DNA from: Candidatus Binataceae bacterium
GTDB lineage: Bacteria; Desulfobacterota; Binatia; Binatales; Binataceae
DNA: 64,000 bases
Assembly (NCBI GenBank): GCA_030038355.1
Contig: JASHPB010000098.1
Coordinates: 586-64,585 of the forward strand
Direction: 5' to 3'
Position numbers and translations under genes: made by a program. The notes below the pieces were generated by a model. It was not told the origin of the DNA. It saw nothing but the letters and a program-made list of their open reading frames with translations, and did not search any database. Within the stretch, counting starts at the first letter, position 1, and each line of letters begins with the position of its first letter. This document shows, piece after piece, positions 21,848 to 63,112 of the stretch.

Positions 21848-21850
21848 GCC

Positions 21851-36497: not shown

Positions 36498-36537
36498 CTA
36501 ACCCCTAACCCCTTCCCGCATCGGGAAGGCGGATTAG
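36498..36537. repeat. Palindromic repeat element copy 2 (inverted orientation)
   Basis: The reverse complement reads CCTAATCCGCCTTCCCGATGCGGGAAGGGGTTAGGGGTTAG. The core CTTCCCGATGCGGGAAGGGGTT-GGGTTAG is shared with copy 1. Confidence 0.5.
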
Positions 36538-36875
36538 GATCGCGCACGGTTCTGCTTTCAGCTGCCGTTTTTCACCGCGTAAGCGCTGGACGAGTTTATT
36601 TCGAACTTCGAACGCATCGGCGATATGCAGTCTTCGTTGGCTCGTGCCAAAAAAAGGCTTCCATCGGGCAAAGAAGCCGGATTGGCCGCCAATAGCATTT
36701 GTGTTCGCAGCTCTTCCAGGCGCGAATCACGCAGCGCAAGCTGACTCTCGAGACAGTAGATTTCCGAGCCGTCTCTGGAATTGGCAGCGACCGCATAACA
36801 GAGTTGTTCGACTGCCAACCGTTCGGACCGAATCAGCAGGTTCAAGCTTTCCAATCTCGGCTCCGCGTCGCGGCC

Positions 36876-40411: not shown

Positions 40412-40582
40412 CTCAGCGGATTCCTCTCGACTCAGTCTGAAGTGACCGCGCCATTTATACCCGCGTCGCGCGATGGCGCAAGCGATCCATTTGGGCTAAC
40501 AGAAATGCTGTCGATACGGATGGCCGGCCGAATTGTGCGGGTAGCGGGAAACGCTCGATGCTCACGATGGAGGTCTTTTCAG

Positions 40583-41977: not shown

Positions 41978-42004
41978 CGATTTGAATGAGCTGCACGAGG
42001 AAGT

Positions 42005-46084: not shown

Positions 46085-46088
<4 letters not shown>

Positions 46089-46900: not shown

Positions 46901-46928
46901 GTGCACTACTCCCTTTTCCCAATTTCCT

Positions 46929-47777: not shown

Positions 47778-47857
47778 TGTTGAGCCCTCCAGTTCGTGCT
47801 TGAAGATCATCTAGCACGGCTGGCAATTTAACACAACAGTTGTTATGTGAATTGGAG

Positions 47858-48535
47858 ATGAGCGTGAAACAACTTCGGCGGCAGGCCTCTCCTTCGCGCG
47901 TCAAATCAGCGCCGACCTTTGAGGCTCGGCCGCACGACCGCGCGAAACGAGGACGGCCGATAGGAGATCGCGAGGCCAAAAGCGGCGAGTTGATCGAAGC
48001 CGCACGCTACGTGATTGCGCGCGATGGATACGCCGGTGCGTCGCTGCGCAAGGTTGCGGCGCGAGCCGGCTGCTCGACGGGGGCAGTCACTTATTACTTC
48101 GCGAACAAAGAGGCGATGATCGCGAGAGTCACGCAAGCGCTGTGGGATGAATTCGATGAATGGCTGAGCGATCAGCCCGCGACGATCGATATCCGCGCGA
48201 TATTCGATCGCATGATCCGCTGGACTACCTCGAGGAAAGGCGACGCGTGGCTCGTCGCCTTTCAACTGCTGGTTCGCGCCGTTTCCGATCCTCCGCTCGC
48301 CGCGATGATTCAGAAGCGCTATGCGCAATTCCGCCGCCAACTTGCGCGTCTGTTGGAAAGCGGGCAGGCGCAAGGCGTGATACGCGCCGACATTGCGGCG
48401 GATCTGCTCGCCGATCAGATGAGCGCGATGGGCGATGGCTGGACCATGATGTTTCCGGTCGAGCCGGAGCGTTTCAGTCGCGGACGCATCGACGATTTGG
48501 TCAATGCGGCGATTGCGATGCTGACGCCGCGCTGA
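47858..48535 (+). CDS. TetR/AcrR family transcriptional regulator
   Basis: HTH region GASLRKVAARAGCSTGAVTYYFANKEAMI. It is divergent from the PhyH gene, and the 80-nt intergenic region carries the inverted repeat ACAACaGTTGT. Confidence 0.8.
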   Translation: MSVKQLRRQASPSRVKSAPTFEARPHDRAKRGRPIGDREAKSGELIEAARYVIARDGYAGASLRKVAARAGCSTGAVTYYFANKEAMIARVTQALWDEFDEWLSDQPATIDIRAIFDRMIRWTTSRKGDAWLVAFQLLVRAVSDPPLAAMIQKRYAQFRRQLARLLESGQAQGVIRADIAADLLADQMSAMGDGWTMMFPVEPERFSRGRIDDLVNAAIAMLTPR

Positions 48536-51807: not shown

Positions 51808-52215
51808 TCAGCCCGGCTGCTTGTCGAACCTCGGAAGATCGTCGCGGACGGGCGCCCACGGCGGTGCGCTCTTCATGAAGACCTGCATCATTGGCTTGAA
51901 TAGCGATGGATCGTCGAGGCTGCCGGCCTTGAGCGCGACGAAATCGCCCATCGCCGGCAGCACGGAGACGATCGGCGAGCCGCAGTTCGGGCAGAAGCCG
52001 CGGCTCACCTTGTTGCCGCTGTCTCCCGTCACTTCATAGTGCTTGAGCTGCCCCGTGATCTTGAGCGCGGCATTCGGCACCAGCATCACCGACGCCATCG
52101 CGGTTCCGGTCGAATGCTGGCAATCGGTGCAGTAGCAATTTCCCATGAAGATAGGATCGGCTGAGCATTCGTAGCGCACCGCTCCGCAAGCGCATCCGCC
52201 GGTGATTTTAGCCAT
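51808..52215 (-). CDS. GFA family protein (glutathione-dependent formaldehyde-activating enzyme / CENP-V-like Zn-Cys domain)
   Basis: ATG 52215 with RBS AGGAGGA at 7 nt. Cys pattern CACGAVRYEC...CYCTDC...CPNCG is typical of the GFA domain. Confidence 0.8.
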   Translation of the reverse strand: MAKITGGCACGAVRYECSADPIFMGNCYCTDCQHSTGTAMASVMLVPNAALKITGQLKHYEVTGDSGNKVSRGFCPNCGSPIVSVLPAMGDFVALKAGSLDDPSLFKPMMQVFMKSAPPWAPVRDDLPRFDKQPG

Positions 52216-52366
52216 GGCACTTCCTCCTGATGTCGCAGAGTCGCCTATCGCGCGCGCATGAATCAAGCGCGACTCGATCGTAGCTTTCCATCGTCCAAAA
52301 AGACGATGCCACTAACCCGCCGGATTGTGGCAGCATCGTTATGGACCATCAGGTGGAGGGTCGCTT

Positions 52367-53437
52367 ATGCCGCTGACACACATGATCGATGCAGCGCCGA
52401 TTGCGGATCGCTACGCGCGCGGATGGCATTGCCTGGGACTCGCGGCTGACTATCACGACGGCGAGCCGCATCGAATCGACGCCTTTGGCACGCGCCTCGT
52501 CGTGTTCGCGGGGGAGGATGGCGCTTTCCACGTCCTCGACGCGTTCTGCCCGCACATGGGCGCCGATTTGAGCTGCGGCCAGGTGCGCGGCGATACCATT
52601 TGCTGTCCCTTCCATAACTGGAGCTACGGACCGGACGGCAAGTGCGTCAACATCCCCTACAGCAAGCGCATCCCGCCCAAGGCGCGCGTGCGTTCGTGGC
52701 CGATCAGCGAGCAGAACAAGTTGCTATTCGTGTGGAACGATCCCGAGGGCAACGCGCCGACGCCGGACCTGGATATTCCGCGCATCGACGCGTGTTACTC
52801 AAATGAATGGACCGACTGGGTAATCGAAAAGTGGACGATCAACACCAACTGCCGCGAGTTGATCGACAACGTTGCCGACATGGCGCACTTTCCCGTCGTG
52901 CATAACGCGCCGGTCGATTACTTTGCCAACGTCTTCCAGCGTCACAAGGCGACGCAGATAATGATCGGCAGCGGCGGCGTGGGGACTCAGGGAAGCCTCA
53001 AGACCTGCGCAACTTACTTCGGCCCCGCGTATCAGATCACGCAAATGACGGGCGAAATGGGCGGGTTTCCGGTCGATTCGATCCTGCTGAACTGCCACGT
53101 GCCGGTTCATCTACGATGCTTCGAGCTGCGCTTCGGGATGGTCGTGCGCAAGATGAAGGGCGTGAGCGACGAACTATCGAAGCAGATGACCGAGGCGTAC
53201 ATCAAGGGCATCCAGCAGGGTTTCTACCAGGACGTAGCAATCTGGGATAACAAGATCAGGATCGACAATCCCCTTCTCTGCGAAGGCGATGGGCCGATCT
53301 ACCAGCTTCGCGAATGGTACCGGCAGTTCTACGTCGATGCGGACGACGTGCCCGAGGACACGCGCAAGCGGCAGGTGGTCGAGATTAACCTGGGGCTCAA
53401 GGATCCGCCCGCGCCGCATCACGTATTCGAGGATTAG
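52367..53437 (+). CDS. kshA: Rieske [2Fe-2S] non-heme iron oxygenase, 3-ketosteroid 9alpha-hydroxylase KshA-like
   Basis: ATG 52367 with RBS GGTGGAGGG. Rieske CPHMGADLSCG-x-CCPFHNW (CxH-x16-CxxH). Mononuclear Fe motif NVADMAHFPVVH (D-x2-H-x4-H). The N-terminal string RGWHCLGLAADYHDGEPHRIDAFGTRLVVFAGEDGAFHVLDAFCPHMG closely parallels KshA (RGWHCLGLAKDF..GKPH.V..FGT.LVVFAD..G...VLDAYCRHMG) as recalled. Confidence 0.85.
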   Translation: MPLTHMIDAAPIADRYARGWHCLGLAADYHDGEPHRIDAFGTRLVVFAGEDGAFHVLDAFCPHMGADLSCGQVRGDTICCPFHNWSYGPDGKCVNIPYSKRIPPKARVRSWPISEQNKLLFVWNDPEGNAPTPDLDIPRIDACYSNEWTDWVIEKWTINTNCRELIDNVADMAHFPVVHNAPVDYFANVFQRHKATQIMIGSGGVGTQGSLKTCATYFGPAYQITQMTGEMGGFPVDSILLNCHVPVHLRCFELRFGMVVRKMKGVSDELSKQMTEAYIKGIQQGFYQDVAIWDNKIRIDNPLLCEGDGPIYQLREWYRQFYVDADDVPEDTRKRQVVEINLGLKDPPAPHHVFED

Positions 53438-53500
53438 CGGCCGCGCCGCGCCTCGTCGGCACTATCCGCACGTATCGCAGTCCGGCGCGCCTTGGACTAG

Positions 53501-54688
53501 ATGAATGATGTGGCCGGGCAGGTCCATCGCGCGCGCAAGGTTAACTTATCGAACGGCGGCTTTCCGCTGTCGCTCAATGACTTCAGCGAACTGGTCGCCA
53601 TGATCTACCAGGGCCCGCTCGAGCCCGTGCCCTGGAAGAGCGCGCTCGAGATCCTGCGGCAGCATCTCCGCGCCAACTACGTCACGCTGATGCTCCGCCC
53701 TCCCAGCGCCGAGCGCGAACCGCTCATGGTGAACGCGGCGGGTGATTCACCAATCACACGCCAGGACGAATACAACAAGTACTACTACGCGCTCGATCCT
53801 TTCGTTGATCTGCCCGAGGATCGCGTCGTCACCGTCGAGGAGTTGATCGGCGACGATAACTGGCGCGACAGCGATTTCTACAAGCAGTTTCTCAAGCCGC
53901 TCGACATTCTTCATGCGCTCGGCGCCGATATCCGCACCGAAGAAGGCGTGGAATGCCGCTTCCGCGTCGCCAGGTCGCATCGCGAATCGCCGTTTTCAGA
54001 ACGCGATCGCATGCTCTGCGAGATGGTCCTGCCGCATCTCAAACGCGCCGTGCATCTGCATTCGCAGCTCGAGCAAATCGACTCCGAGCGCCGCCTCTAT
54101 GCCGGCACCGTTGATCGCATGCTGGTCGGCACCCTCATCCTCGATCAGTCCGGCGCCGTGATTCGCCGCAACCGGGTGGCCGACGAGATGTTGCGTGAGG
54201 GCGACGGGCTTGGAATCGTAAATGGCGCGCTTCGCGCCGATCATCCCGCTGAGAATCGCGAGCTGCAGCGCCTTATCAAGCAGGCGATGAGCTGCGCGCC
54301 TGGCGGACGCCCCGCCGTGGTCGAGGCGATCTCGATCAGCAGGAAGTCGGAGCGCGCGAAACTCGGAATTCTGATTCGCAGCATTCCGGCGACTGGATGG
54401 TCTGAGGGCAAGCGGCGCCCTGCCGTCGCGCTCTTCATCCGCGATGCGGTCCGCAAGTCGGAGGCGTCGCGCGAGATGATACGGAGCCTTTTCGACCTGA
54501 CTCCTGCCGAGGCAAGTCTTGCGCTCTCGCTCGCGAACGGGCTCACCCTCGATGAAGCGGCTGAGGAACTCAAGATCCGCAAGAATACGGCGCGAGCGCA
54601 TCTGCGCGCGATCTTTTCGAAAATTGGCGTGACCCGACAGACGACTCTCGTGCGCGTGCTGCTGAGCAGCGTGGTGTGGCTCGGATGA
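53501..54688 (+). CDS. LuxR-family transcriptional regulator (C-terminal GerE/LuxR HTH; N-terminal ~320-aa domain of unknown fold)
   Basis: 395 aa. The C-terminal LTPAEASLALSLANGLTLDEAAEELKIRKNTARAHLRAIFSKIGV is a LuxR-type HTH. The N-terminal region has no motif I recognise. The gene sits between kshA-like and hsaA-like genes. Confidence 0.85.
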   Translation: MNDVAGQVHRARKVNLSNGGFPLSLNDFSELVAMIYQGPLEPVPWKSALEILRQHLRANYVTLMLRPPSAEREPLMVNAAGDSPITRQDEYNKYYYALDPFVDLPEDRVVTVEELIGDDNWRDSDFYKQFLKPLDILHALGADIRTEEGVECRFRVARSHRESPFSERDRMLCEMVLPHLKRAVHLHSQLEQIDSERRLYAGTVDRMLVGTLILDQSGAVIRRNRVADEMLREGDGLGIVNGALRADHPAENRELQRLIKQAMSCAPGGRPAVVEAISISRKSERAKLGILIRSIPATGWSEGKRRPAVALFIRDAVRKSEASREMIRSLFDLTPAEASLALSLANGLTLDEAAEELKIRKNTARAHLRAIFSKIGVTRQTTLVRVLLSSVVWLG

Positions 54689-54812
54689 GCGTCGAGTCCA
54701 TAGTCCTTTCGGACGATTCATGCGGGCGAGTCCCGATGTCACCATCGCGGGCGACCGCATCACGCAAGGTAACGGAGCGAGCGTGGCACTATCGGAAGAT
54801 TCGATCAGGCCA

Positions 54813-56006
54813 ATGAAAGCCAACGGCGAAGCTGGCGAATTGGATCTCGCCGCGTCACTTCGCGAGCGCGCGCGCACGATGGTGCCCACGATCGCCAGCC
54901 GCGCGGCGCTCTGCGAACAGCAGCGGTTCGTCCCCAGGGAAACGATCGCGGAGTTCAAACAGGCCGGCCTCTTCCGCATCATACAGCCGCGACGTTACGG
55001 CGGATACGAGCTGCATCCAAATGTCTTCTTCGACGTGCAGATGACGCTCGCCGAAGGATGCATGTCGACTGGATGGGTTTACGGCGTTGTCGGGGTGCAC
55101 AACTGGCAGCTCGGCCTCTTCGATCAGCGCGCGCAGGAAGACGTCTGGGGCAAGGACGACTCGGTGCTGATCTCGTCAAGCTACATGCCGAAAGGACAGG
55201 TCGAGCGCGTCGACGGCGGATTCAAGTTCAGCGGCCGCTGGGGGTTTTCGAGCGGCGTCGATCACGCCGACTGGCTGTTTCTCGGCGGAATCATCCCGTC
55301 GAAGTCGGGCGTGCCCGACTACCGAACATTCCTCGTGCCCCGCGCCGACATCAGCATCAACGACAACTGGCATACCATGGGGCTCAAAGGAACGGGCAGC
55401 AAGGAGGTCGTCATCGAAAACGCGTTCGTGCCCGAGTATCGAACGCATCGTGCGATCGACGGATTCGCCGGCACCAGCCCGGGCCTCAGCATAAATACAA
55501 CTCCTCTATATAGGCTGCCATTCGGCCAGGTTTTCGTGCGCGCCGTTTCGAGCGCGTCGATCGGAGCGCTGCAAGGCGCGCTGAATGTTTTCCGCGAATA
55601 CGGATCCAAGCGCACCAGCATCAACGACATGGCCCGCACCGCCGAGGATCCTACGGCTCAGCGTGCTGTTGCGGAGGCGGCGCTCGCGATCGATGACATG
55701 CGGCTCGAGCTTCATCGGAATTTCGACGCGATGCTGACGACGCTCACGCGCGGCGACGCGCTCGACGTCAACGATCGAATCCACTACCGCTACCAGTCCG
55801 CCGACGTTGCGCAGCGATGCTGCGATCATATCGATCGTCTGTTTCATTCGTGCGGCGGCCAGGGAGTTTACGCCGACAAGCCGATCGGGCGTTTCCTCGT
55901 CGATATTCACGCAGCGCGCCTGCATTACGCGAACAACGCCGAGAAGTTCGGCCGCAACTATGGCGGTGTGCTGCTCGGTCTCGGCAACACGGACTTCTTT
56001 ATATGA
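54813..56006 (+). CDS. Acyl-CoA-dehydrogenase-fold flavin-dependent monooxygenase (HsaA / HpaB-C2 / DszC-like group D)
   Basis: ACAD-like blocks (..FRIIQPRRYGGYEL.., GWVYGVVGVHNWQ, FSGRWGFSSG) and a C-terminal four-helix region. Start ATG 54813, with an alternative GTG at 54783. Its stop overlaps the next gene start (ATGA). Confidence 0.75.
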   Translation: MKANGEAGELDLAASLRERARTMVPTIASRAALCEQQRFVPRETIAEFKQAGLFRIIQPRRYGGYELHPNVFFDVQMTLAEGCMSTGWVYGVVGVHNWQLGLFDQRAQEDVWGKDDSVLISSSYMPKGQVERVDGGFKFSGRWGFSSGVDHADWLFLGGIIPSKSGVPDYRTFLVPRADISINDNWHTMGLKGTGSKEVVIENAFVPEYRTHRAIDGFAGTSPGLSINTTPLYRLPFGQVFVRAVSSASIGALQGALNVFREYGSKRTSINDMARTAEDPTAQRAVAEAALAIDDMRLELHRNFDAMLTTLTRGDALDVNDRIHYRYQSADVAQRCCDHIDRLFHSCGGQGVYADKPIGRFLVDIHAARLHYANNAEKFGRNYGGVLLGLGNTDFFI

Positions 56007-57724
56007 GCGACGCGGCGAGAGCGGGCGCGGCGAGCGCGAACTGGGACGGCGAATTCGATGTGATCGTCGTCGGCTCAGGCGCGGGCGGACTTACCGCCGC
56101 GATCGCCGCGCATGACCTGGGCCAGTCAGTCGTAGTGCTCGAGAAGAGCGACCAGTACGGCGGCACGTCGGCAATCTCCGGCGGCGGCGTGTGGGTGCCG
56201 TGCAATCATCTGCTCATCGAAGCGGGTGTGAGTGATAGCCACGACGAAGCACTGACGTATCTCAAGGCCGCGACACGCGGGATGGTCGCCGAGGCGCGCC
56301 TGCTCGCGTATCTCGAGCACGCGCCCAAGATGCTCCGCTACTTGGAAGAGAAGACGTGGCTTAAATATCGCTCGATGCTGCAGTACTCGGACTACTATCC
56401 GCATCTGCCGGGTTCGAAGCCCGGCGCGCGCACTCTCGATCCGTTGCCATTCGACGCATCGCGGCTCGGCGAGGAGTTCGGGCATATGCGACCGCCGCAG
56501 CCCGGCACGCTAATCGGCGGCCGAATCACGATGACGGCCGGCGAGGCGCATACGATCCTCTGCAAGGATCGTGGCTGGACGACGCTATTCGCAAAACGCA
56601 TGTTGTCCTACTGGCTCGATCTGCCGTGGCGGCTGCGCACCAAGCGTGACCGGCGGTTAACGCTAGGTAGTTCGCTGATCGGATCGCTACGGCGCTCGAT
56701 GATGGATCGCGCAATCGCGCTCTGGCTCAATGCGCCGTTCGAATCCCTGATCGTGGATTCGCGCCGCATCACTGGCATTGTGGCGAGGCGTGATGGCAAA
56801 CCCGTCCGTATCGGCGCGCGGCGGGGTGTGATCCTCGCCGCTGGCGGATTCGAGCATAATCAACAGATGCGCGATCAGTATCTCCCAAAGCCAACCCGCG
56901 CCGAATGGACGGTCACGCCCGAGGCCAACACCGGAGACGCCATTCGCGCCGGCCTCGAAGCGGGTGCGCGCGTCGATCTGATGGATCACGCATGGTGGGC
57001 GCCTACAGTGTACATCATGGGTCGCGAAAAACGGCGCGCGCTCTTCGTCGAGCGCGCACTGCCCGGATGCGCGATGGTCAATCGCCTGGGCCAGCGTTTT
57101 GTCGACGAAGCCGCGCCCTACAGCGACATCGTGTACGCGATGTACGCCGACAACGAGAAGAGCCACGCCAATCTGCCAGCGTGGCTGATCTTCGATGCCG
57201 AGTTCCGGCGCAAATATCCGTGCGGTCCGCTGCTACCGGGCATGGTGCGTCCCGACAGATCCCTGCCAGCCTCGTGGCTCGGCGCGGTTTTCTTTCGCGC
57301 CGAAACCCTCGCTGCGCTCGCTTCGCAAATCCAGGTTGACGCTGCGGGCCTCAAGCAAACAATCGAGCGGATGAATCAGTTCGCGCGAAGCGGTGATGAC
57401 CAGGAGTTCGGCAAGGGCAGCAATCCGTTCGATCGCTACTATGGCGATGTCAACATCAGGCCGAATCCATGCCTCGGGCCGATCGCGACGCCTCCTTTCT
57501 ATGCGATACGAATCGATGCCGGTGATATCGGGACCAAGGGTGGGCTCCTCACGGATGAATACGCGCGGGTGGTCCGCGAGGACGGCCAGCCGATCCCCGG
57601 CCTCTACGCGATCGGCAACACTTCCGCTGCCGTAATGGGTCCGAGCTATCCTGGTGCGGGCTCGACGCTCGGACCCGCGATGACTTTTGGTTACATCGCG
57701 GCGCATCATCTCGCAGGAGTTTAG
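56003..57724 (+). CDS. FAD-dependent 3-ketosteroid-delta1-dehydrogenase (KstD)-family flavoprotein
   Basis: 573 aa from ATG 56003. GxGxxG FDVIVVGSGAGGLTAA, the FAD_binding_2 pattern (GGTSAISGGGVWVP), and a C-terminal GLYAIGN..GPSYPGAGSTLGPAMTFGYIAAHH typical of KstD/fumarate-reductase-like enzymes. Confidence 0.85.
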   Translation: MSDAARAGAASANWDGEFDVIVVGSGAGGLTAAIAAHDLGQSVVVLEKSDQYGGTSAISGGGVWVPCNHLLIEAGVSDSHDEALTYLKAATRGMVAEARLLAYLEHAPKMLRYLEEKTWLKYRSMLQYSDYYPHLPGSKPGARTLDPLPFDASRLGEEFGHMRPPQPGTLIGGRITMTAGEAHTILCKDRGWTTLFAKRMLSYWLDLPWRLRTKRDRRLTLGSSLIGSLRRSMMDRAIALWLNAPFESLIVDSRRITGIVARRDGKPVRIGARRGVILAAGGFEHNQQMRDQYLPKPTRAEWTVTPEANTGDAIRAGLEAGARVDLMDHAWWAPTVYIMGREKRRALFVERALPGCAMVNRLGQRFVDEAAPYSDIVYAMYADNEKSHANLPAWLIFDAEFRRKYPCGPLLPGMVRPDRSLPASWLGAVFFRAETLAALASQIQVDAAGLKQTIERMNQFARSGDDQEFGKGSNPFDRYYGDVNIRPNPCLGPIATPPFYAIRIDAGDIGTKGGLLTDEYARVVREDGQPIPGLYAIGNTSAAVMGPSYPGAGSTLGPAMTFGYIAAHHLAGV

Positions 57725-57725
57725 G

Positions 57726-58577
57726 ATGCTTATCGATCGGGTATGCCTCGTTACCGGAGCGAGCCTCGGCGTCGGCAAGGGAATCGCTATCGCACTCGGC
57801 GCGGCGGGCGCGACCGTTTACGTGACCGGCCGCAGCAGCAAGAAGAGCGACAATCAGTTCGGCGGCACCGTGTTTGTGACGGCCGAGGACGTCACCAAAC
57901 GTGGGGGACGCGGCGTAGCCGTCGTCTGCGACCATAGTGATGACCAGCAAACACGGGCGCTTTTCGACAAGATCGAAAAGGAATCAGGCCGGCTCGATAT
58001 CCTGGTCAACAACGCGACCGCGATCCCCGATGGCCTCACCGAGGCCGGACCCTTCTGGAAGAAGCCGCTCAGTTTCGTGAAACTGCTCGACGTGGGGCTT
58101 CGTTCCTACTACACGACGACGTGGTACGCCGCGCCGATGCTGACGCGACAGGGCGGCGTGGTCTTCAATTCATCGTCGCCCGGCGCGAAGGGGTACGTTC
58201 ATGGCCCGGCTTATGGCGCCGCCAAGGCGGGTGTTGACAAGATGTCGCACGACATGGCGCACGACTTCAAGCCGTTTGGTGTCACGGTCATCTCGGTTTG
58301 GCTTGGGCTGGTGAAGACCGAGAAGGTCATGACGATCGACCTCAACAAGTCGAAGTACGGGCCGATGCTCGCGATCGCGGAATCGGCAGAGTTCGGCGGC
58401 CGCATTATCGAGGCGATGTACAACGATCCAAACCGGATGGAGCTTAGCGGCCAGACTTTTTTCGCCGCGGAGCTGGCCGAGCGCTACCAGGTGAAGGACG
58501 TCGACGGTAATCAGCCGCCGTCTGGCCGCATGGCCCTCGGTGCGCCTTCCGAGTTTTCTCCGCTCGTCATCGAATGA
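57726..58577 (+). CDS. SDR family oxidoreductase
   Basis: ATG 57726 with AGGAG upstream. TGASLGVGKGIA (TGxxxGxG), NNAT, YxxxK (YGAAKAGV). Confidence 0.85.
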   Translation: MLIDRVCLVTGASLGVGKGIAIALGAAGATVYVTGRSSKKSDNQFGGTVFVTAEDVTKRGGRGVAVVCDHSDDQQTRALFDKIEKESGRLDILVNNATAIPDGLTEAGPFWKKPLSFVKLLDVGLRSYYTTTWYAAPMLTRQGGVVFNSSSPGAKGYVHGPAYGAAKAGVDKMSHDMAHDFKPFGVTVISVWLGLVKTEKVMTIDLNKSKYGPMLAIAESAEFGGRIIEAMYNDPNRMELSGQTFFAAELAERYQVKDVDGNQPPSGRMALGAPSEFSPLVIE

Positions 58578-60294
58578 GAGGACGCGACTTACGGCCAACA
58601 CCGCAGCCGACATAGCGCTCGCATCCAACGCGTCGGGGGCGACGCCGATTGGCGCGCCGCTTCGCGCCGACGGATCGTCGCCAATCGAGTGGAATGACGA
58701 ATGTGACCTCCTCGTCGTGGGCTTCGGCGCCGCGGGAGCAGCGGCGGCGATCGAGGCTGCGCACGCCGGCGCGAGCGTGATCGTCGCCGATCGCTTTGGC
58801 GGCGGCGGTGCGAGCGCGAAGAGCGGCGGCGTCGTGTACGCGGGCGGCGGTACGCGATTCCAAAAAGCGGCGGGGTACGACGATTCGCCCGACGCGATGT
58901 TGGAGTATCTGACTAAGGAGGTCGGCGACGCAGTCGATCGTGCGACGCTTCGGAGTTTCTGCGATCACAGCGTCGAGATGATCGAGTGGCTCGACGCGCA
59001 GGGCATCCAATTCGACTCGAGTGTGCCGCCGCACAAGACCTCTTACCCGGCTGACGGCTTCTACCTTTATTTCTCCGGCAATGAAGCGGTTAAGGAATAC
59101 GCGGGAGCGCATCCACCGGCGCCGCGCGGTCATCGCGTGAAAGGCGCGGGCCTTTCGGGCGCGCTCCTCTTTCATGCGCTCAAGAAAAGCGCGCAAGCCG
59201 CGGGCGCTCGAATCATGACGCAGTCAGCCGTCCGACGACTGGTTATCGACCAAAGCGGCGCGGTGCGGGGCGCAGAGCTTTGGCAGTTTGAGCCCAACAG
59301 CCGCGAGCAGCGGCGTCATCGGCAGCTCAGCCGATGGGCGGAGCGGACGTTCTATGCGGCGCCTGGGCTTTCGGATCGTCTTAGGCGGCGCGCGCTGCAA
59401 GTCGAGCTGACAGGCGCACGGCCGAGGTTCATTCGCGCGCGCGGCGGCGTGGTGCTCAGCACGGGAGGATTCATCTTCAACCGTGAGATGGTCGCGGAGC
59501 ACGCGCCCCAGTACCTGCGCAACTTCCGCCTCGGCACTTCGGGATGCGACGGCAGCGGCGTGCGCCTGGGAGAAACGGTCGGTGCCGCGTCATCACGCCT
59601 CGAACGAATCTCGGCGTGGAGGTTCATCAACCCGCCGCTCGCGTGGGCGCGCGGCATGATTGTCGATACTACGGGACGCCGCTTCTGCAACGAGGAAGTT
59701 TATGGCGCGCGGCTCGGGTTCGAGATGTGCGAGCATCACGGCGGCCGCGCGTGGCTCATCATTGATTCGACCATCAGGCGCGAAGCCTTAATTGAAGCGC
59801 TCTTCGGTGGTCTCTGGGGCTTCCAGAGCGTGCCCGTTCTGGTTCTGACCTTCGCGGGCGCAAAGCGCGCACCCTCGCTGGAACGTCTCGCGGACAGAAT
59901 AGGTGCTGAGCCCTCCGTGCTTAGCGCAAGCTTGAACAACTACAATCGCGCCAGCGCGGATGGTATCGATCCGCTCGGCAAATCGCGCGACCTGCTCGTT
60001 CCCCTCGCCGGGCCGCCCTTCTATGCGCTCGATATCTCAGTCGATAAGCGCGTCTTTCCTTGTCCGGCGATTACCCTCGGCGGCCTGCTCGTTGACGAGG
60101 CGACAGGCGCGGTGAAAAAGAGCGACGGGAGCACAATCGCGGGACTCTATGCCGCCGGCCGCGCCGCGGTTGGAGTCGCCTCGAATCATTACGTGAGCGG
60201 GCTCGCGCTGGCCGACTGCATCTTTTCGGGACGCCGTGCCGGCAGCGCTGCCACGGCGAATCTCCGCGACAGGAAGGCGACAGCGACCGCATAG
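58540..60294 (+). CDS. FAD-binding dehydrogenase, KstD/fumarate-reductase flavoprotein-like (second copy, divergent)
   Basis: GxGxxG LLVVGFGAAGAAAAIEAAHAG, GGGASAKSGGVVYAGGG, and a C-terminal GLYAAGRAAVGVASNHYVSGLALADCIFSGRRAG. The only in-frame start candidate is GTG 58540, which overlaps the upstream SDR by 38 nt. It gives a ~50-aa N-terminal extension. Confidence 0.7.
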   Translation: MRLPSFLRSSSNERTRLTANTAADIALASNASGATPIGAPLRADGSSPIEWNDECDLLVVGFGAAGAAAAIEAAHAGASVIVADRFGGGGASAKSGGVVYAGGGTRFQKAAGYDDSPDAMLEYLTKEVGDAVDRATLRSFCDHSVEMIEWLDAQGIQFDSSVPPHKTSYPADGFYLYFSGNEAVKEYAGAHPPAPRGHRVKGAGLSGALLFHALKKSAQAAGARIMTQSAVRRLVIDQSGAVRGAELWQFEPNSREQRRHRQLSRWAERTFYAAPGLSDRLRRRALQVELTGARPRFIRARGGVVLSTGGFIFNREMVAEHAPQYLRNFRLGTSGCDGSGVRLGETVGAASSRLERISAWRFINPPLAWARGMIVDTTGRRFCNEEVYGARLGFEMCEHHGGRAWLIIDSTIRREALIEALFGGLWGFQSVPVLVLTFAGAKRAPSLERLADRIGAEPSVLSASLNNYNRASADGIDPLGKSRDLLVPLAGPPFYALDISVDKRVFPCPAITLGGLLVDEATGAVKKSDGSTIAGLYAAGRAAVGVASNHYVSGLALADCIFSGRRAGSAATANLRDRKATATA

Positions 60295-60314
60295 GATCGA
60301 TATCGGATAGCCAG

Positions 60315-61049
60315 ATGGAAGGGGTGAAGGGAAAGGTCGTGATCGTCACTGGCGCCGCGAGCGGTATTGGCAGAGAGGACGCGCTCAAGCTCGCGAGCGA
60401 AGGTGCGCGAGTCGTGCTGACGGATTTAAACGAGGACCATGGGCCCGCGGTGGCCCGCGAAATTGGGAAAGACGCACTCTTCGTCCGCCACGACATTTCG
60501 AGCGAGGATGACTGGAAAAGGGCCATCGCCACGACACAAGATCGGTTCGGCCGCATCGATGGTTTGGTGAACAACGCGGGCATCCTGCTAATGGGCTCGG
60601 TCGAGGACACGACGCTCGAGCAGTGGCGCAAGGTCTTGCGCGTCAACGCCGACGGTTACTTTCTCGGATGCAAGTATGGCGTCGCGGCGATGAAAGCGAA
60701 CGGCGGCTCGATCGTTAACATGTCGTCTGTCGCCGCCGACGGTTTGCCGTTCGCCGCTGCCTACAGCGCGTCGAAGGGCGCGGTTGCAGCGCTAACGCAC
60801 AGTGTCGCGGTGCACTGCCGTAGCTGCGGCTACAGAATCCGCTGCAACTCGATTCATCCTGACGGTGTGATAACGCCGATGACGCTGCCGCTGATGGGGA
60901 ATCCTGATCCGGCGACGATCAATTACGCTGCCGATCCCACGTCGCGCTTCTGCGATCCTGGCGATGTCGCGAACCTCGTGTTGTTTCTGATTTCGGATGA
61001 GTCGCGCTTTATTAACGGCGCGCAGATGCGAATCAGCAACGCCTATTGA
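60315..61049 (+). CDS. SDR family oxidoreductase, 3beta/17beta-hydroxysteroid dehydrogenase-like
   Basis: 244 aa. VTGAASGIG, NNAG, YSASKGAV. The string LVNNAGILLMGSVEDTTLEQWRKVLRVNADGYFLGCKYGVAAMKANGGSIVNMSSV...YSASKGAVAALT...IRCNSIHPDGVITPM...LVLFLISDESRFINGAQM parallels the Comamonas 3beta/17beta-HSD, as recalled from memory. Confidence 0.8.
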   Translation: MEGVKGKVVIVTGAASGIGREDALKLASEGARVVLTDLNEDHGPAVAREIGKDALFVRHDISSEDDWKRAIATTQDRFGRIDGLVNNAGILLMGSVEDTTLEQWRKVLRVNADGYFLGCKYGVAAMKANGGSIVNMSSVAADGLPFAAAYSASKGAVAALTHSVAVHCRSCGYRIRCNSIHPDGVITPMTLPLMGNPDPATINYAADPTSRFCDPGDVANLVLFLISDESRFINGAQMRISNAY

Positions 61050-61052
61050 GTA

Positions 61053-62099
61053 ATGGGAAATCCGGCGAATGATGAGACCTGCTATTTGCTCCGTATCCGC
61101 GAGGTGGTCGAGGAAACGGACGAGGCCAAGTCTCTGGTCTTCGAGGTGCCGCCCGCCGCTGCCGAAATATTTCGCTACCGCCCCGGGCAATTCCTGACAC
61201 TTCGTATTCCGCACGAAGGGCGGCATCTGCTGCGCTGCTATTCGCTCGCAAGCTGCCCGCTGACTGATGAAGCGCCGCGCGTAACAGTCAAGCGGGTTGC
61301 CGATGGGCGCGCTTCGAACTGGATCTGCGATCGGCTAAAGGCGGGAGACACGATCGAGGTGAAGGCTCCCGCCGGTCACTTCACGCCCCGTTCGTTGGAC
61401 GGCGATTTTCTGTTCTTTGCCGGCGGCAGCGGTATCACGCCCATCATGTCGATCATCAAGTCCGCGCTGCACGGTGGGTGTGGGCGATTGCTCCTCATTT
61501 ATGCGAATCGAGACGAGCGCTCAGTTATATTCCGCGACGAGCTGAAGGCGCTCGTTCGCGAGCATCCGTCGCGGTTGCAAATCGTTCACTGGCTCGATTC
61601 CGTGCAGGGAATTCCGCTTGCGGCGAACCTCGAGCACTCGGCGAAACCGTTTTCCACCGCCGACTGCTACATCTGCGGGCCTGAGCTCTTCATGGACGGC
61701 GCTCTGAGAGCGCTCCGCGCGCTAGGATTGCCGCCCTCACGTATTCATGTCGAACGATTCGTCTCGCTGCCCGACCAAGAAGACGCAGCAGCAGAGGAAG
61801 CTCCGGCGCCCGCGGCGGATGCTGAGATCCAGCTCGAAGTTGAACTGGACGGAGTTCATCACAAGCTGATATGCAGGCGGAGCGAGCCTCTGCTCAATGC
61901 GATGCTGCGCGCGGGCCTCAAGGCACCGCATTCATGCCGCGCCGGGGCCTGCGCCACCTGCATGTGCACCCTGGAAGCGGGCGAGGTTCATCTGCGCAAC
62001 AACCAGGTGCTCGACAAGAACGATCTCGCGCAGGGCTGGATTCTCGCTTGCCAGGCGATTGCCGACACTCCGTCGGTGAAGGTCAGATTTCCGGATTAA
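61053..62099 (+). CDS. kshB: FNR-type oxidoreductase with C-terminal plant-type [2Fe-2S] ferredoxin domain (KshB / class IA oxygenase reductase-like)
   Basis: RxYS FAD motif (RCYSLAS), NAD motif GGSGITP, C-terminal CRAGACATCMC...C ferredoxin ligands. 348 aa, typical of KshB/PaaE-type reductases. Confidence 0.85.
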   Translation: MGNPANDETCYLLRIREVVEETDEAKSLVFEVPPAAAEIFRYRPGQFLTLRIPHEGRHLLRCYSLASCPLTDEAPRVTVKRVADGRASNWICDRLKAGDTIEVKAPAGHFTPRSLDGDFLFFAGGSGITPIMSIIKSALHGGCGRLLLIYANRDERSVIFRDELKALVREHPSRLQIVHWLDSVQGIPLAANLEHSAKPFSTADCYICGPELFMDGALRALRALGLPPSRIHVERFVSLPDQEDAAAEEAPAPAADAEIQLEVELDGVHHKLICRRSEPLLNAMLRAGLKAPHSCRAGACATCMCTLEAGEVHLRNNQVLDKNDLAQGWILACQAIADTPSVKVRFPD

Positions 62100-62121
62100 G
62101 CGCTTCCGCGCGGAGCGTTTG

Positions 62122-62952
62122 TCAGCCCTCGCGCAGGAAAGTCAGACACTCGCGATTGAACAGCTCGCGATGCTCGACCATCACCCAGTGCCCGCATCGG
62201 TTGAGCAGCACGAAGCGCGCGTTCGGGCAGTTCTCGAGGATCTTCATCGCGCCGCCGACCGGGTTGAAGCGATCGTTGGTTCCCCAGAAGCCTAGCAGCG
62301 GGCATTTGATTTCGCCGAGCCGCGGCGCCATGTTCGGCACGCGCATCGTTGAAAGCACAGTGCGCGGCTGCATCGCGCATACGCCGACCCGCTCCTCGAG
62401 CAGCTCTTCGGTGATGTGCGAGGCGTCGAAAAGCTGCAGCGTGAGCAGGCGGCGCATCGAGTCGGTGTCCATCGGACCGGCCGCAAACACCTGGATCATC
62501 TTGCTGATGCCTTCCATCTGGAGATAGACCGGCAGGTCCTCGACGCCGCCAGGAGCCATCAGGATTAGGCGAGTCACGAGTTGCGGATAGTCCAGCGTGT
62601 ACTTGAGCGCGATCGCGCCGCCCAAAGAGTTGCCGAGCAGTGTGAATCGCGCGAGGCCGATCTTCTCGACGAGCCCGTGCACGCCGGCGACGAAGAAGTC
62701 GAGCGTGTACTGCGCGTCTTCCGGTTTCGATGAAAGCCCGAATCCCGGCAGGTCGGGCACGATCGCGCGAAAGCCGGCGTCCGCAAACACGGGGAAGTTG
62801 CCCTTGAAGTTGCTGTAGCCGCTCGCGCCCGGACCGCTGCCGTGCAGAAAAATCACCGGCGCGCCCTTGCCGGCCTCGTGGTAATGAATAGTCAATCCAC
62901 TCGCGATTTGTGCGTACTTTCCCTGCGGAATCGGGATCTTAGTGCCGCTCAT
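62122..62952 (-). CDS. Alpha/beta-hydrolase, meta-cleavage-product (C-C bond) hydrolase HsaD/BphD-like
   Basis: 276 aa. HGSGPGASG oxyanion region, nucleophile GNSLGG, and a C-terminal His in CGHWVMVEH. Length and motifs are those of the MCP hydrolases. Confidence 0.85.
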   Translation of the reverse strand: MSGTKIPIPQGKYAQIASGLTIHYHEAGKGAPVIFLHGSGPGASGYSNFKGNFPVFADAGFRAIVPDLPGFGLSSKPEDAQYTLDFFVAGVHGLVEKIGLARFTLLGNSLGGAIALKYTLDYPQLVTRLILMAPGGVEDLPVYLQMEGISKMIQVFAAGPMDTDSMRRLLTLQLFDASHITEELLEERVGVCAMQPRTVLSTMRVPNMAPRLGEIKCPLLGFWGTNDRFNPVGGAMKILENCPNARFVLLNRCGHWVMVEHRELFNRECLTFLREG

Positions 62953-63112
62953 AATTCCTCCACGGCGAGCGAGCAGATCCTCGTGGTGGAGGCGCGCCGA
63001 TGCATCGTCCGATCAGACTATCGCACAGATATCGTTTGTCTGACGCGGCAGCCGACGACCATGGAATTGGCAACAGAGTTGCGCAAAGGTCATGAACAAG
63101 GAGAAGAACGCG

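What the first reader, a model, noticed from the sequence alone, without database searches (positions are those of the whole stretch)
52216..62952. Steroid-nucleus (A/B-ring) degradation-like gene island with an unusual gene order and an embedded LuxR-type regulator
Within 10.7 kb the window encodes most of the enzymes of bacterial steroid A/B-ring opening:
- a KshA-like Rieske oxygenase (52367..53437)
- a KshB-like FNR/2Fe-2S reductase (61053..62099)
- two KstD-like FAD dehydrogenases (56003..57724 and 58540..60294)
- an HsaA-like ACAD-fold monooxygenase (54813..56006)
- an HsaD-like MCP hydrolase (62122..62952)
- a 3beta/17beta-HSD-like SDR (60315..61049) plus a second SDR (57726..58577)

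This is the actinobacterial/Comamonas 9,10-seco pathway toolkit, yet three things are off-pattern. No extradiol dioxygenase (HsaC) or flavin reductase (HsaB) is visible. KshA and KshB are 8 kb apart. The regulator is LuxR-type, not the usual TetR-type KstR/KstR2. Genes are translationally coupled (ATGA overlaps at 56003, tight spacing at 57724/57726 and 61049/61053), which suggests one long operon from the hsaA-like gene to the kshB-like gene. If the host is not a classical steroid degrader, or the substrate is not a steroid (for example a polycyclic terpenoid), this could be an undescribed variant pathway.
Basis: partly seen in the sequence, partly recalled or inferred. Interest (0 to 1): 0.7.

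Follow-up and report, generated by a model that had tools for sequence, protein, structure and literature searches.

The report
Steroid ring-opening genes in Binatota
This is a real, intact gene island for opening the A and B rings of steroids, built like the Comamonas/Burkholderiales "tes" clusters, but it sits in a genome of the uncultured soil phylum Binatota, lacks the ring-cleaving dioxygenase that related Binatota carry at the same spot, and has one 18-bp palindrome in front of each of its three transcription units.

Summary
Window 52.3-63.0 kb encodes KshA, a LuxR-family regulator, an HsaA-like oxygenase, a delta1-KstD, an SDR, a delta4(5alpha)-ketosteroid dehydrogenase (not a second KstD), a 3beta/17beta-HSD-like SDR, a KshB-like reductase and, convergently, an HsaD-like hydrolase.

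The 'off-pattern' reading is mostly wrong:
- The block hsaA-kstD-delta4-SDR-kshB, with a nearby divergent hsaD, is the standard order in betaproteobacterial tes clusters (47-62% identity).
- LuxR-type regulators (TesR/TeiR) are the known proteobacterial pattern.
- In Comamonas the meta-cleavage gene also lies far from these genes.

What is new:
- The host is Binatota; about 25 related MAG contigs share the island.
- About 10 relatives carry hsaC, some also hsaE or ipdAB-ipdC-echA20, exactly where the window has a 22-bp gap. The window therefore holds a 3'-reduced form. It is still under strong purifying selection (dN/dS 0.05-0.13).
- An 18-bp palindrome, ATMGTC-N6-GACKAT, occurs three times in 64 kb, upstream of kshA, hsaA and hsaD. 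The same box sits in steroid-gene promoters of Proteobacteria. It is a candidate operator of the island's LuxR protein.

Verdict: a new member of a known kind, in a new phylum.

The parts
51808..52266 (-). GFA-domain (PF04828) gene, divergent from kshA. It is a conserved neighbour of the island in Binatota. Its role is unknown.
   Evidence: Pfam GFA 7.5e-34. It is adjacent to kshA in about 20 Binatota loci at 75-92% identity and was not detected in any proteobacterial locus. The palindromic box lies 24 nt from its start codon.
52290..52307 (.). Box 1: ATCGTCCAAAAAGACGAT, a perfect 6-N6-6 palindrome 60 nt upstream of the kshA ATG. Predicted operator.
   Evidence: The box matches the pattern exactly in 23 of the 24 aligned kshA upstream regions from Binatota-type contigs (window included); L017 carries a degenerate copy.
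52367..53437 (+). kshA: 3-ketosteroid 9alpha-hydroxylase, Rieske oxygenase component (356 aa).
   Evidence: Pfam Rieske + KshA_C. PDB KshA 4qdc 8.8e-120, with the Rieske CxH...CxxH motif and the DxxxDxxHxxxxH iron motif aligned. Homologues are 356 aa and JGI names them KshA. A GGAGG ribosome-binding site lies 8 nt before the ATG.
53501..54688 (+). LuxR-family one-component regulator (395 aa): two PAS/GAF-like domains followed by a GerE helix-turn-helix.
   Evidence: Pfam GerE at residues 333-386. AlphaFold model, pLDDT 73. Foldseek matches to tandem GAF/PHY modules and to RhlR/SdiA. Conserved at 72-93% identity in Binatota-labelled loci (70% in the unlabelled long-form contig L085) and 57-60% in Cupriavidus/Paraburkholderia.
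54700..54717 (.). Box 2: ATAGTCCTTTCGGACGAT, in the luxR-hsaA intergenic region. Predicted operator of the hsaA-kshB operon.
54813..56006 (+). hsaA/tesA1-like flavin-dependent 3-HSA 4-hydroxylase, oxygenase subunit. The start is uncertain: the ORF opens at 54720, but box 2 ends at 54717, so GTG at about 54786 or ATG 54813 is more likely.
   Evidence: NCBIfam HsaA 403 bits (cutoff 450). PDB 2rfq 1e-84 and 3afe 2e-80. The Alicycliphilus tes-cluster orthologue scores only 362 bits. Homologues are 396-404 aa.
56003..57724 (+). kstD/tesH: 3-ketosteroid delta1-dehydrogenase (573 aa). Overlaps hsaA by ATGA.
   Evidence: PDB 7p18 2.1e-223. NCBIfam delta1-KSTD models score 598-604 bits, below cutoff.
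57726..58577 (+). SDR 'a' (283 aa), DHRS1/PRK08303-like. Substrate unknown. It occupies the slot where a Paraburkholderia-type cluster has the flavin reductase HsaB.
   Evidence: Homologues at 47-52% identity occur in proteobacterial steroid loci L050, L066, L074 and L078.
58540..60294 (+). tesI-like 3-ketosteroid delta4(5alpha)-dehydrogenase. The GTG start at 58540 is the only start codon in this frame near the 5' end of the ORF.
   Evidence: PDB 4at0 2.1e-64. NF005511 754 bits, above its cutoff of 466. Junction read.
60315..61049 (+). SDR 'b' (244 aa), 3beta/17beta-hydroxysteroid-dehydrogenase-like.
   Evidence: Best PDB match is 1hxh, 1.3e-63. Occupies the same position between tesI and tesJ in betaproteobacterial loci, at 43-61% identity.
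61053..62099 (+). kshB/tesJ-like reductase: FNR-type FAD/NAD domain plus a C-terminal plant-type 2Fe-2S domain.
   Evidence: Pfam. The RxYS, GGSGITP and Cx4Cx2C motifs were read. It is 50-59% identical to the gene in the tesJ position of proteobacterial loci.
62122..62952 (-). hsaD/tesD-like meta-cleavage-product hydrolase, convergent with kshB across a 22-bp gap.
   Evidence: NCBIfam HsaD 195.7 and BphD 194.1 bits. PDB BphD 3e-54 and HsaD 1e-44. Catalytic motifs GNSLGG, D and H read. It is 52-62% identical to the hydrolase of proteobacterial tes clusters. It has its own box.
63004..63021 (.). Box 3: ATAGTCTGATCGGACGAT (read on the minus strand), 52 nt upstream of the hsaD start codon.
   Evidence: A box stays upstream of hsaD in 12 other Binatota loci even where the neighbouring gene differs.

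Best explanation
The island is the 'upper' steroid-nucleus module of the aerobic 9,10-seco pathway. It has the proteobacterial (tes) architecture and is carried on the chromosome of a Binataceae (phylum Binatota) bacterium.

Inferred chemistry:
1. The 3beta/17beta-HSD-like SDR, and perhaps the second SDR, oxidise ring hydroxyls to 3-ketosteroids.
2. The delta4(5alpha)- and delta1-dehydrogenases make the 1,4-diene-3-one.
3. KshA, with the KshB-like reductase, hydroxylates C9. The B ring then opens spontaneously and the A ring aromatises, giving 3-HSA.
4. The HsaA-like oxygenase makes the catechol 3,4-DHSA. It needs reduced flavin from a reductase that is not encoded here.
5. After meta-cleavage, the HsaD-like hydrolase splits off the A-ring fragment.

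The meta-cleavage dioxygenase (HsaC/TesB) is missing from this window. Related Binatota encode it, with or without hsaE, or with ipdAB-ipdC-echA20, between kshB and hsaD. The window and its nearest relative therefore carry a 3'-deleted form. The step must be supplied from elsewhere in the genome, or the pathway stops at the catechol.

Inferred transcription: three units, kshA-luxR, hsaA-to-kshB (translationally coupled) and hsaD. Each is preceded by the palindrome ATMGTC-N6-GACKAT. I propose that this box is the operator of the island's LuxR-family protein, a ligand-sensing one-component regulator that probably responds to a steroid.

Shown here: gene identities, synteny, host assignment, box positions and their enrichment, purifying selection.
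Inferred: substrates, operon boundaries, the regulator-box pairing, and whether regulation is activating or repressing.
For: Family assignments.

Synteny:
- About 20 Binatota loci share GFA(-)|kshA-luxR-hsaA-kstD-SDRa-delta4-SDRb, followed by a variable 3' end with kshB or a ferredoxin-only gene and usually hsaD(-).
- Betaproteobacterial tes clusters have the same block at 47-62% identity, and so does a Paraburkholderia-type contig.
- The literature gives TesH, TesI, TesJ (ORF17), TesA1A2 and TesD in one cluster, with TesB about 100 kb away.

Host:
- KstD is 93% identical to a 'Candidatus Binataceae' MAG that shares the upstream flank.
- Named KshA and LuxR homologues at 64-80% identity are all Binataceae, Binatus or Binatia.
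- The island lies on contigs of 0.1-3.8 Mb.

hsaC in relatives:
- A 299-aa Glyoxalase/BphC_D1 protein scores 288 bits against NCBIfam HsaC, and JGI names its homologues 3,4-DHSA 4,5-dioxygenase.
- It always lies directly after kshB or the ferredoxin gene.
- L006 keeps a 33-aa remnant of it.

Boxes:
- Only three sites exist in 64 kb, and all three are in island promoters. None of 100 shuffles reached this count.
- Across the fetched loci there are 59 exact matches against 0-1 in simulations.
- The box is positioned upstream of kshA, hsaA, hsaD and hsaC in Binatota. In Proteobacteria it lies upstream of tesA1-like or kstD genes, including between divergent luxR and kstD in Azospirillum.

Selection: dN/dS against the nearest relative is 0.05-0.13 for all nine genes.

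Regulator fold.
Against: - No activity, growth or expression data exist for any Binatota.
- hsaC, hsaB and hsaEFG, and all C/D-ring and side-chain genes, are absent from the 64 kb. The rest of the genome could not be searched.
- HsaA, HsaD, delta1-KstD and HsaC all score below NCBIfam's curated cutoffs. The accepted Alicycliphilus tes orthologues of HsaA and HsaD score lower still.
- HsaD is not separable from BphD by sequence.
- The regulator-box pairing rests only on co-occurrence. Comamonadaceae loci have the box but no homologue of this LuxR within 10 kb.
- Homology to TesR/TeiR could not be tested. One paper states that tesR-like genes are confined to C. testosteroni.
- The LuxR model has only moderate confidence, and the fold matches have low TM-scores of 0.3-0.47.
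Confidence: 0.8

Rival explanations
1. The pathway is truncated in this lineage. With hsaC deleted, the organism only transforms steroids to 3-HSA or 3,4-DHSA-type seco-phenols or catechols, either as detoxification or with cross-feeding to neighbours. hsaD would then be retained for another meta-cleavage substrate.
For: - There is no extradiol dioxygenase in the 64 kb.
- Every copy of the Binatota hsaC clade whose context was read lies inside an island. No second genomic location is documented.
- hsaC clusters are fewer than kshA clusters, about 13 against about 30.
- About 12 loci lack hsaC at the island, counting L006, which keeps only a remnant.
Against: - hsaA and hsaD, the steps on either side of the missing one, are under strong purifying selection (dN/dS 0.069 and 0.077).
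- hsaD keeps the same box as the other units, which argues for one working pathway.
- Extradiol dioxygenases of other clades could substitute, and they could not be searched for genome-wide.
Confidence: 0.25
2. The true substrate is not a steroid but another polycyclic terpenoid, such as a hopanoid or a plant triterpenoid or diterpenoid, handled by steroid-like enzymes.
For: - The window has no side-chain degradation genes.
- The host is a soil lineage.
- There is an extra DHRS1-like SDR and a conserved GFA-domain neighbour that steroid clusters do not have.
- NCBIfam equivalog cutoffs are not reached.
Against: - The nearest characterised homologue of every catalytic protein acts on steroids: KshA 9e-120, HsaA 1e-84, the 3-oxosteroid 1-dehydrogenase 7p18 2e-223, the delta4(5alpha)-dehydrogenase 2e-64 and the 3beta/17beta-HSD 1e-63.
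- Long-form relatives add ipdAB-ipdC-echA20-like genes, which by established knowledge of the M. tuberculosis KstR2 regulon are specific to the steroid C/D-ring (HIP) pathway.
- Accepted proteobacterial orthologues also fall below the cutoffs.
Confidence: 0.08
3. The island is a decaying remnant of a horizontally acquired cluster and no longer functions.
For: - The 3' end varies between relatives. hsaC is lost in about 12 loci, kshB is cut down to a ferredoxin-only gene in 8, and both kshB and hsaC are missing in 3.
- There is a deletion scar in L006.
- Unrelated genes are inserted in L070.
Against: - All nine ORFs are intact.
- dN/dS is 0.05-0.13.
- The three boxes are conserved to the base.
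- Translational coupling is preserved.
Confidence: 0.04
4. The contig is mis-binned and really belongs to a proteobacterium.
For: - A few related short contigs carry other labels: Acidiferrales, Vulcanimicrobiota, Casimicrobiaceae and Thermodesulfobacteriota.
- The nearest relatives outside the group are Betaproteobacteria.
Against: - More than 20 MAGs from independent studies are labelled Binataceae, Binatus or 'uncultured delta proteobacterium', and some contigs reach 0.6-3.8 Mb.
- Identity to any proteobacterial protein is only 50-62%.
- The island shows no GC discontinuity with the rest of the window.
- The upstream flank is shared with a Binataceae MAG.
Confidence: 0.03

Closest known systems
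The tes genes of Comamonas testosteroni TA441 (tesH, tesI, tesJ/ORF17, tesA1A2, tesD; regulator TesR/TeiR) and the equivalent clusters of Alicycliphilus, Simplicispira, Polaromonas and Paraburkholderia
   Same: - Same enzyme set and the same order, hsaA-kstD-delta4(5alpha)-SDR-kshB, with a divergent or convergent MCP hydrolase.
- The meta-cleavage gene need not be local.
- The regulator is LuxR-type.
- The same palindromic box lies upstream of the tesA1-like gene.
   Different: - Only 47-62% identity, and the host is a different phylum.
- kshA and the regulator are placed at the head of the island.
- There is an extra DHRS1-like SDR and no flavin reductase.
- tesEFG and the scdA CoA ligase are not adjacent.
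- A GFA-domain neighbour is present.
- Homology of the regulator to TesR/TeiR itself was not tested.
Actinobacterial cholesterol/steroid clusters (Rhodococcus, Mycobacterium: kshAB, kstD, hsaACDB, hsaEFG; regulators KstR and KstR2)
   Same: Same pathway chemistry. KshA and HsaA match the solved actinobacterial structures at 1e-80 to 1e-120.
   Different: - No hsaACDB operon.
- No TetR-type KstR/KstR2 in the island.
- The hydrolase is closer to BphD of a proteobacterium than to M. tuberculosis HsaD.
- The KstD is of the long type represented by 7p18 (2e-223), not the KstD1 type (3e-88).
'Long-form' islands of related uncultured bacteria (L084/L085, L087, L088, L090)
   Same: Same core at 60-74% identity. 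The box is present upstream of kshA and hsaC.
   Different: After kshB they continue with hsaC-ipdA-ipdB-ipdC(NMO)-echA20-like genes, followed by an ACAD or SDR gene. This links A/B-ring genes to C/D-ring genes. The window has a 22-bp gap there.

Membership tests
Aerobic 9,10-seco steroid-nucleus degradation cluster (tes/hsa type) | KshA: a Rieske oxygenase with the KshA C-terminal catalytic domain and a mononuclear iron site | tested here: met
   PF19298 8e-74 and PF00355. PDB KshA 8.8e-120 with the metal motifs aligned.
Aerobic 9,10-seco steroid-nucleus degradation cluster (tes/hsa type) | KshB/TesJ: an FNR-type reductase with a C-terminal 2Fe-2S domain, encoded with the pathway | tested here: met
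   Domain architecture, motifs, and 50-59% identity to the gene in the tesJ position. No KshB-specific curated model gave a hit; the best NCBIfam match is PaaE, below cutoff.
Aerobic 9,10-seco steroid-nucleus degradation cluster (tes/hsa type) | 3-ketosteroid delta1-dehydrogenase | tested here: met
   PDB 7p18 2e-223. The NCBIfam delta1-KSTD models are the top hits at 598-604 bits but fall below their cutoffs of 788-789.
Aerobic 9,10-seco steroid-nucleus degradation cluster (tes/hsa type) | HsaA/TesA1 oxygenase of the two-component 3-HSA hydroxylase | tested here: inconclusive
   Top NCBIfam hit is HsaA at 403 bits, below the cutoff of 450. PDB HsaA 1e-84. The orthologue in the Alicycliphilus tes-type cluster scores 362 bits, so the cutoff does not fit non-actinobacterial members.
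Aerobic 9,10-seco steroid-nucleus degradation cluster (tes/hsa type) | HsaB/TesA2 flavin reductase | tested here: not met
   No Flavin_Reduct gene in the island, and no homologue in the window. It is present in Alicycliphilus and in the Paraburkholderia-type contig.
Aerobic 9,10-seco steroid-nucleus degradation cluster (tes/hsa type) | HsaC/TesB extradiol dioxygenase | tested here: not met
   Absent from all 64 kb. Present directly after kshB or the ferredoxin gene in about 10 related contigs.
Aerobic 9,10-seco steroid-nucleus degradation cluster (tes/hsa type) | HsaD/TesD MCP hydrolase specific for 4,9-DSHA | tested here: inconclusive
   The MCP-hydrolase fold and catalytic triad are met. HsaD (195.7 bits) and BphD (194.1 bits) are not separable. 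Synteny and the shared box favour TesD. Substrate specificity is not testable here.
Aerobic 9,10-seco steroid-nucleus degradation cluster (tes/hsa type) | Growth on steroids, or turnover of steroids | not testable with these tools
   The lineage is uncultured. No paper in the library links Binatota or Binatia to steroid degradation.
TesR/TeiR-type LuxR regulators of steroid catabolism | C-terminal LuxR/GerE helix-turn-helix with an N-terminal sensing region; no receiver domain | tested here: met
   GerE at residues 333-386. The model shows two PAS/GAF-like domains and no REC domain.
TesR/TeiR-type LuxR regulators of steroid catabolism | Sequence homology to TesR/TeiR of C. testosteroni, and a requirement for steroid induction | not tested
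One paper states that tesR-like genes are restricted to C. testosteroni. Filed as 'works like', not as a member.
KstR/KstR2 (TetR-type) regulated actinobacterial steroid regulon | A TetR-family repressor encoded with the cluster | tested here: not met
   The only regulator in the island is LuxR-type. The nearest TetR gene (47840-48535) lies about 4 kb upstream among unrelated genes, and its flank is not conserved across Binatota loci.

The most novel reading that the evidence does not exclude
Three linked claims:
1. Binatota, an abundant and uncultured soil phylum, are a third phylum of aerobic 9,10-seco steroid degraders.
2. A single LuxR-family ligand sensor, together with the 18-bp box T[AC]GTCY-N4-RGAC[GT]A, forms a steroid regulon whose operator is shared between Binatota and Alpha-, Beta- and Gammaproteobacteria. 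This would give the first sequence-defined operator for proteobacterial-type steroid catabolism.
3. Within Binatota the island is being trimmed from the 3' end. Lineages like this one would run only the ring-opening half of the pathway and hand over or accumulate seco-steroid catechols.
Probability: 0.3. Interest if true: 0.6.

Novelty: new member of a known kind. Interest (0 to 1): 0.45.

Why it matters
- Genome and metagenome surveys have found the 9,10-seco pathway only in Actinobacteria and Proteobacteria, and reported no hsaC in any other phylum (Holert et al. 2018, PMC5790920). A conserved, selected island in about 25 Binatota-type contigs, with hsaC and C/D-ring genes in some of them, would extend steroid turnover in soil to an uncultured phylum.
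- The cross-phylum palindromic box gives a concrete, testable handle on how proteobacterial-type steroid genes are regulated. That regulation is poorly defined beyond the genetic requirement for TesR/TeiR.
- The enzymes themselves are ordinary. Standard annotation already names them: JGI labels the homologues KshA and HsaC.

Tried and rejected
- Looking downstream of 64000 for hsaC/hsaB/hsaEFG is not possible. The identical LuxR protein is on record on a 64,833-bp contig. Exact-protein look-ups for the window's own contig failed or returned only a 3.9-kb fragment.
- Annotating the rest of the window for steroid genes found none.
- The insertions inside islands L070 and L069 hold unrelated genes: an adenylate cyclase/TPR protein, amidohydrolases, RNase II and a helicase-nuclease.
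- The regions downstream of hsaD in L010 and L031 are unrelated and not conserved.
As a substitute I searched with a Binatota HsaC and read seven contexts. All of them lie inside an island.
- Literature searches for Binatota or Binatia together with steroid, sterol, KshA or ketosteroid found only a paper on sterol biosynthesis in sponge Binatia.
- A search for the box sequence in papers returned only primer noise.
- The sigma-70 promoter and terminator scan was no better than shuffles.
- Rfam and tRNA scans of the window found nothing.
- My first position-weight matrix for the box was mis-centred when I symmetrised it. I rely on the pattern counts instead.

Full report
OBSERVATION

- kshA (52367-53437) has Rieske plus the KshA-specific C-terminal domain, PF19298 8e-74. 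Its three best PDB matches are KshA proteins at 9e-120 to 7e-111. The next family, SxtT, is at 4.5e-18. The Rieske and iron-binding motifs align.
- The ACAD-fold protein has HsaA as its best NCBIfam hit: 403 bits against a cutoff of 450. HPA hydroxylase scores 242 and DszC 48. It matches solved HsaA structures at 1e-84 and 2e-80.
- 56003-57724 is a delta1-KstD. It matches PDB 7p18 at 2e-223. From my own knowledge, 7p18 is AcmB of Sterolibacterium denitrificans.
- 58540-60294 is not a second KstD. It is a 3-ketosteroid delta4(5alpha)-dehydrogenase: PDB 4at0 at 2e-64, against KstD1 at 5e-18. It passes the NF005511 cutoff, 754 against 466 bits.
- The 244-aa SDR is closest to the 3beta/17beta-HSD structure 1hxh, 1.3e-63.
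- The 283-aa SDR is DHRS1-like.
- 61053-62099 has the KshB architecture, FAD_binding_6/NAD_binding_1/Fer2.
- The minus-strand gene 62122-62952 is an MCP hydrolase with an intact GNSLGG/Asp/His triad. Sequence alone does not assign it to HsaD or to BphD.
- The regulator gene is 53501-54688.

SURROUNDINGS

- The rest of the window holds no steroid gene, no extradiol dioxygenase and no flavin reductase. It encodes amidases, four PhyH-type dioxygenases, family III CoA-transferases, amidohydrolases, a PrkA-DUF444-SpoVR operon and similar genes. tblastn with HsaC, HsaB, HsaE, IpdA/B and the NMO-type reductase finds nothing at E<0.1.
- There is no GC break at the island.
- The identical LuxR protein is on record on an NCBI contig of 64,833 bp. 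Practically nothing lies beyond the window.

HOST

- A scan of one genome per species with the KstD returned a 'Candidatus Binataceae' MAG at 93% identity as best hit. That MAG shares the upstream flank as well (methyltransferase, GFA gene).
- The same scan returned about 20 more MAG contigs at 71-82% identity. They are labelled Binataceae, Binatus or 'uncultured delta proteobacterium', and several are 0.6-3.8 Mb long.
- Named KshA and LuxR homologues at 64-80% identity are all Binataceae, Binatus or Binatia.
- Binataceae belongs to the candidate phylum Binatota.
- The next-nearest relatives of every island protein are Proteobacteria at only 50-62% identity: Cupriavidus, Paraburkholderia, Duganella and Pseudomonas for KshA and LuxR; Zoogloea and Thauera for KstD.

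IS THE ARCHITECTURE UNUSUAL? NO.

- tblastn of the island proteins against the fetched loci shows the run hsaA-kstD-delta4(5alpha)-SDR-kshB, with an MCP hydrolase on the opposite strand about 2 kb away. It occurs in about 25 betaproteobacterial loci, among them Alicycliphilus denitrificans, Comamonas faecalis, Simplicispira, Polaromonas, Limnohabitans, Collimonas and Paraburkholderia.
- The TA441 group lists the Alicycliphilus, C. faecalis, Simplicispira and Polaromonas genomes among those with tes-type clusters.
- A Paraburkholderia-type contig reads LuxR ... hsaA-kstD-(flavin reductase)-delta4-SDR-kshB-CoA ligase. The Binatota island has its extra SDR where that cluster has hsaB.
- In C. testosteroni TA441 the enzymes are TesH (delta1), TesI (delta4), TesJ (formerly ORF17, C9 hydroxylation), TesA1A2 and TesD. 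The meta-cleavage gene tesB lies in the other sub-cluster of a 120-kb mega-cluster.
- The regulator needed for induction there, TesR/TeiR, is LuxR-type.
- So a separation of kshA from kshB, a LuxR regulator and a locally missing hsaC are all normal for the proteobacterial type. They look odd only against Actinobacteria.
- The sub-cutoff NCBIfam scores are not a counter-argument. The Alicycliphilus orthologues score lower than the window proteins: HsaA 362 against 403 bits, HsaD 179 against 196 bits.

THE MISSING DIOXYGENASE

- Gene-order comparison across Binatota loci shows an invariant core, GFA(-)|kshA-luxR-hsaA-kstD-SDRa-delta4-SDRb, and a variable 3' end.
- In L004, L011, L015, L082, L083, L086 and L091/L092, a 299-aa Glyoxalase/BphC_D1 protein follows kshB. 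In some of these loci kshB is reduced to its ferredoxin domain. The protein's best NCBIfam hit is HsaC at 288 bits, and JGI names its homologues 3,4-DHSA 4,5-dioxygenase.
- Some of these loci add an NMO-type reductase and a DmpE/HsaE-type hydratase before hsaD.
- More distant relatives (L084/85, L087, L088, L090) continue with hsaC-CoA-transferase pair-NMO-enoyl-CoA hydratase-ACAD/SDR. This is the ipdAB-ipdC-echA20 pattern of C/D-ring degradation. That reading rests on established knowledge of the M. tuberculosis KstR2 regulon.
- L006 retains a 33-aa C-terminal fragment of hsaC right after kshB.
- In the window, kshB and hsaD are separated by 22 bp.
- The simplest reading is that hsaC and its downstream genes were lost from the 3' end in the window's lineage and several others. 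Among loci where the 3' end is visible, about 10 have hsaC and about 12 do not.
- Every hsaC of this clade whose context I could read lies inside an island. I therefore have no evidence for a second copy elsewhere, and I could not search whole genomes.
- The pathway is nevertheless not decaying. Against the nearest relative, which also lacks hsaC, dN/dS is 0.05-0.13 for all nine genes, including hsaA (0.069) and hsaD (0.077).

REGULATION: A NEW LEAD

- Aligning the kshA and hsaA upstream regions of the Binatota loci exposed an 18-bp palindrome that is almost invariant, ATCGTCCAAA(A/G)AGACGAT and ATAGTC(C/T)(T/C)TTCGGACGAT.
- Searching ATMGTC-N6-GACGAT with at most one mismatch in the whole window gives exactly three sites:
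  - 52290-52307, 60 nt before kshA;
  - 54700-54717, before hsaA;
  - 63004-63021, 52 nt before hsaD.
- The expectation is about one strand-match, and none of 100 shuffles reached the observed count.
- In the fetched loci, the symmetric pattern ATMGTC-N6-GACKAT occurs 59 times exactly, against 0-1 in Markov simulations. With one mismatch allowed it occurs 189 times against 2-12.
- Its positions are specific:
  - upstream of kshA, hsaA, hsaD and, in long forms, hsaC in Binatota;
  - 86-112 nt upstream of the tesA1-like gene in Comamonadaceae and Burkholderiaceae;
  - about 39 nt upstream of kstD in Thauera and Zoogloea;
  - between divergent luxR and kstD in Azospirillum;
  - upstream of hsaC, hsaD and SDR genes in several others.
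- The island's only regulator is the 395-aa LuxR-family protein. Its model (pLDDT 73) shows two PAS/GAF-like domains and a C-terminal helix-turn-helix. It resembles tandem-GAF sensors and RhlR/SdiA-type receptors only loosely, with TM-scores of 0.3-0.47.
- I propose it binds the box as a dimer and senses a steroid or a pathway intermediate. This is inference from co-occurrence only.
- Caveats: Comamonadaceae loci have the box without a homologue of this protein within 10 kb, and I could not compare it with TesR/TeiR.
- Box 2 ends 2 nt before the first ATG of the hsaA ORF.

COMPARISON AND NOVELTY

- The thing works like, and is built like, a proteobacterial tes cluster. As a complete 9,10-seco cluster it fails on HsaC, HsaB and HsaEFG, which are not in the window. 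I file it as the upper (A/B-ring) module, in a reduced form.
- The host is what has not been described. Holert et al. found the pathway only in Actinobacteria and Proteobacteria and no hsaC in other phyla. The recent TA441 comparative preprint also covers only those two phyla. No paper in the library connects Binatota with steroid degradation.
- I also could not find the conserved box in the literature, although the search tools are poor for sequence motifs.

VERDICT

This is a new member of a known kind in a new phylum, with a testable regulatory lead. Interest is moderate.

Noticed in passing
window 52290-52307, 54700-54717, 63004-63021; also L063 8597, L078 3321, L037 9897, L074 9778, L084 9992 and many others: The 18-bp palindrome ATMGTC-N6-GACKAT marks steroid-gene promoters not only in Binatota but also in Alpha-, Beta- and Gammaproteobacteria. 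There are 59 exact copies in 1.5 Mb of fetched loci, against 0-1 expected. I found no description of it in the papers searched.
   Followed up: partly
L011 15072-15374, L012 15056-15343, L015 11536-11850, L019 11585-11872, L082 9673-9972, L086 9689-9976: In several Binatota islands kshB is reduced to a free-standing 95-104-aa 2Fe-2S ferredoxin, 78-80% identical to the C-terminal domain of the window's KshB. The FAD/NAD domain is gone, so KshA there must draw electrons from another reductase.
   Followed up: partly
L006 14639-14737: A 33-aa, 82%-identical fragment of the C-terminus of HsaC sits directly after kshB in a locus that otherwise lacks hsaC. This looks like a deletion scar.
   Followed up: partly
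window 51808-52266 (minus strand): A GFA-domain gene (glutathione-dependent formaldehyde-activating family) is the invariant divergent neighbour of kshA in about 20 Binatota loci. Its start codon lies 24 nt from box 1 in the window and 19-26 nt in most of the loci. It was not detected in any proteobacterial locus. No role in steroid catabolism is known.
   Followed up: partly
L082 10981-11241; L087 9509-9856: Toxin-antitoxin genes (a PrlF/MazE-type antitoxin and a PemK toxin) are inserted inside the islands next to hsaC, in the same variable 3' region where genes are gained and lost.
   Followed up: no
window 2837-3715, 28277-29092, 46085-47131, 46929-47810: There are four PhyH-family (phytanoyl-CoA dioxygenase-like) paralogues in 64 kb. 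The last two are adjacent, and their ORFs overlap by about 200 nt as called. Two of the four lie next to TetR-family genes.
   Followed up: no
window 4926-6167, 12748-13956, 13956-15224; 20537-22711: There are three family III CoA-transferases and a tandem pair of Amidohydro_2 genes. A similar Amidohydro_2 pair is inserted inside island L070 (13698-15785).
   Followed up: no
window 33225-38810 (minus strand): An intact PrkA - DUF444 (YeaH) - SpoVR operon, the conserved stress/stationary-phase triad, is present.
   Followed up: no
window 40010-43402: Two amidase genes lie in tandem. The first (655 aa) has an extension of about 200 aa N-terminal to the amidase domain, with no Pfam match.
   Followed up: no
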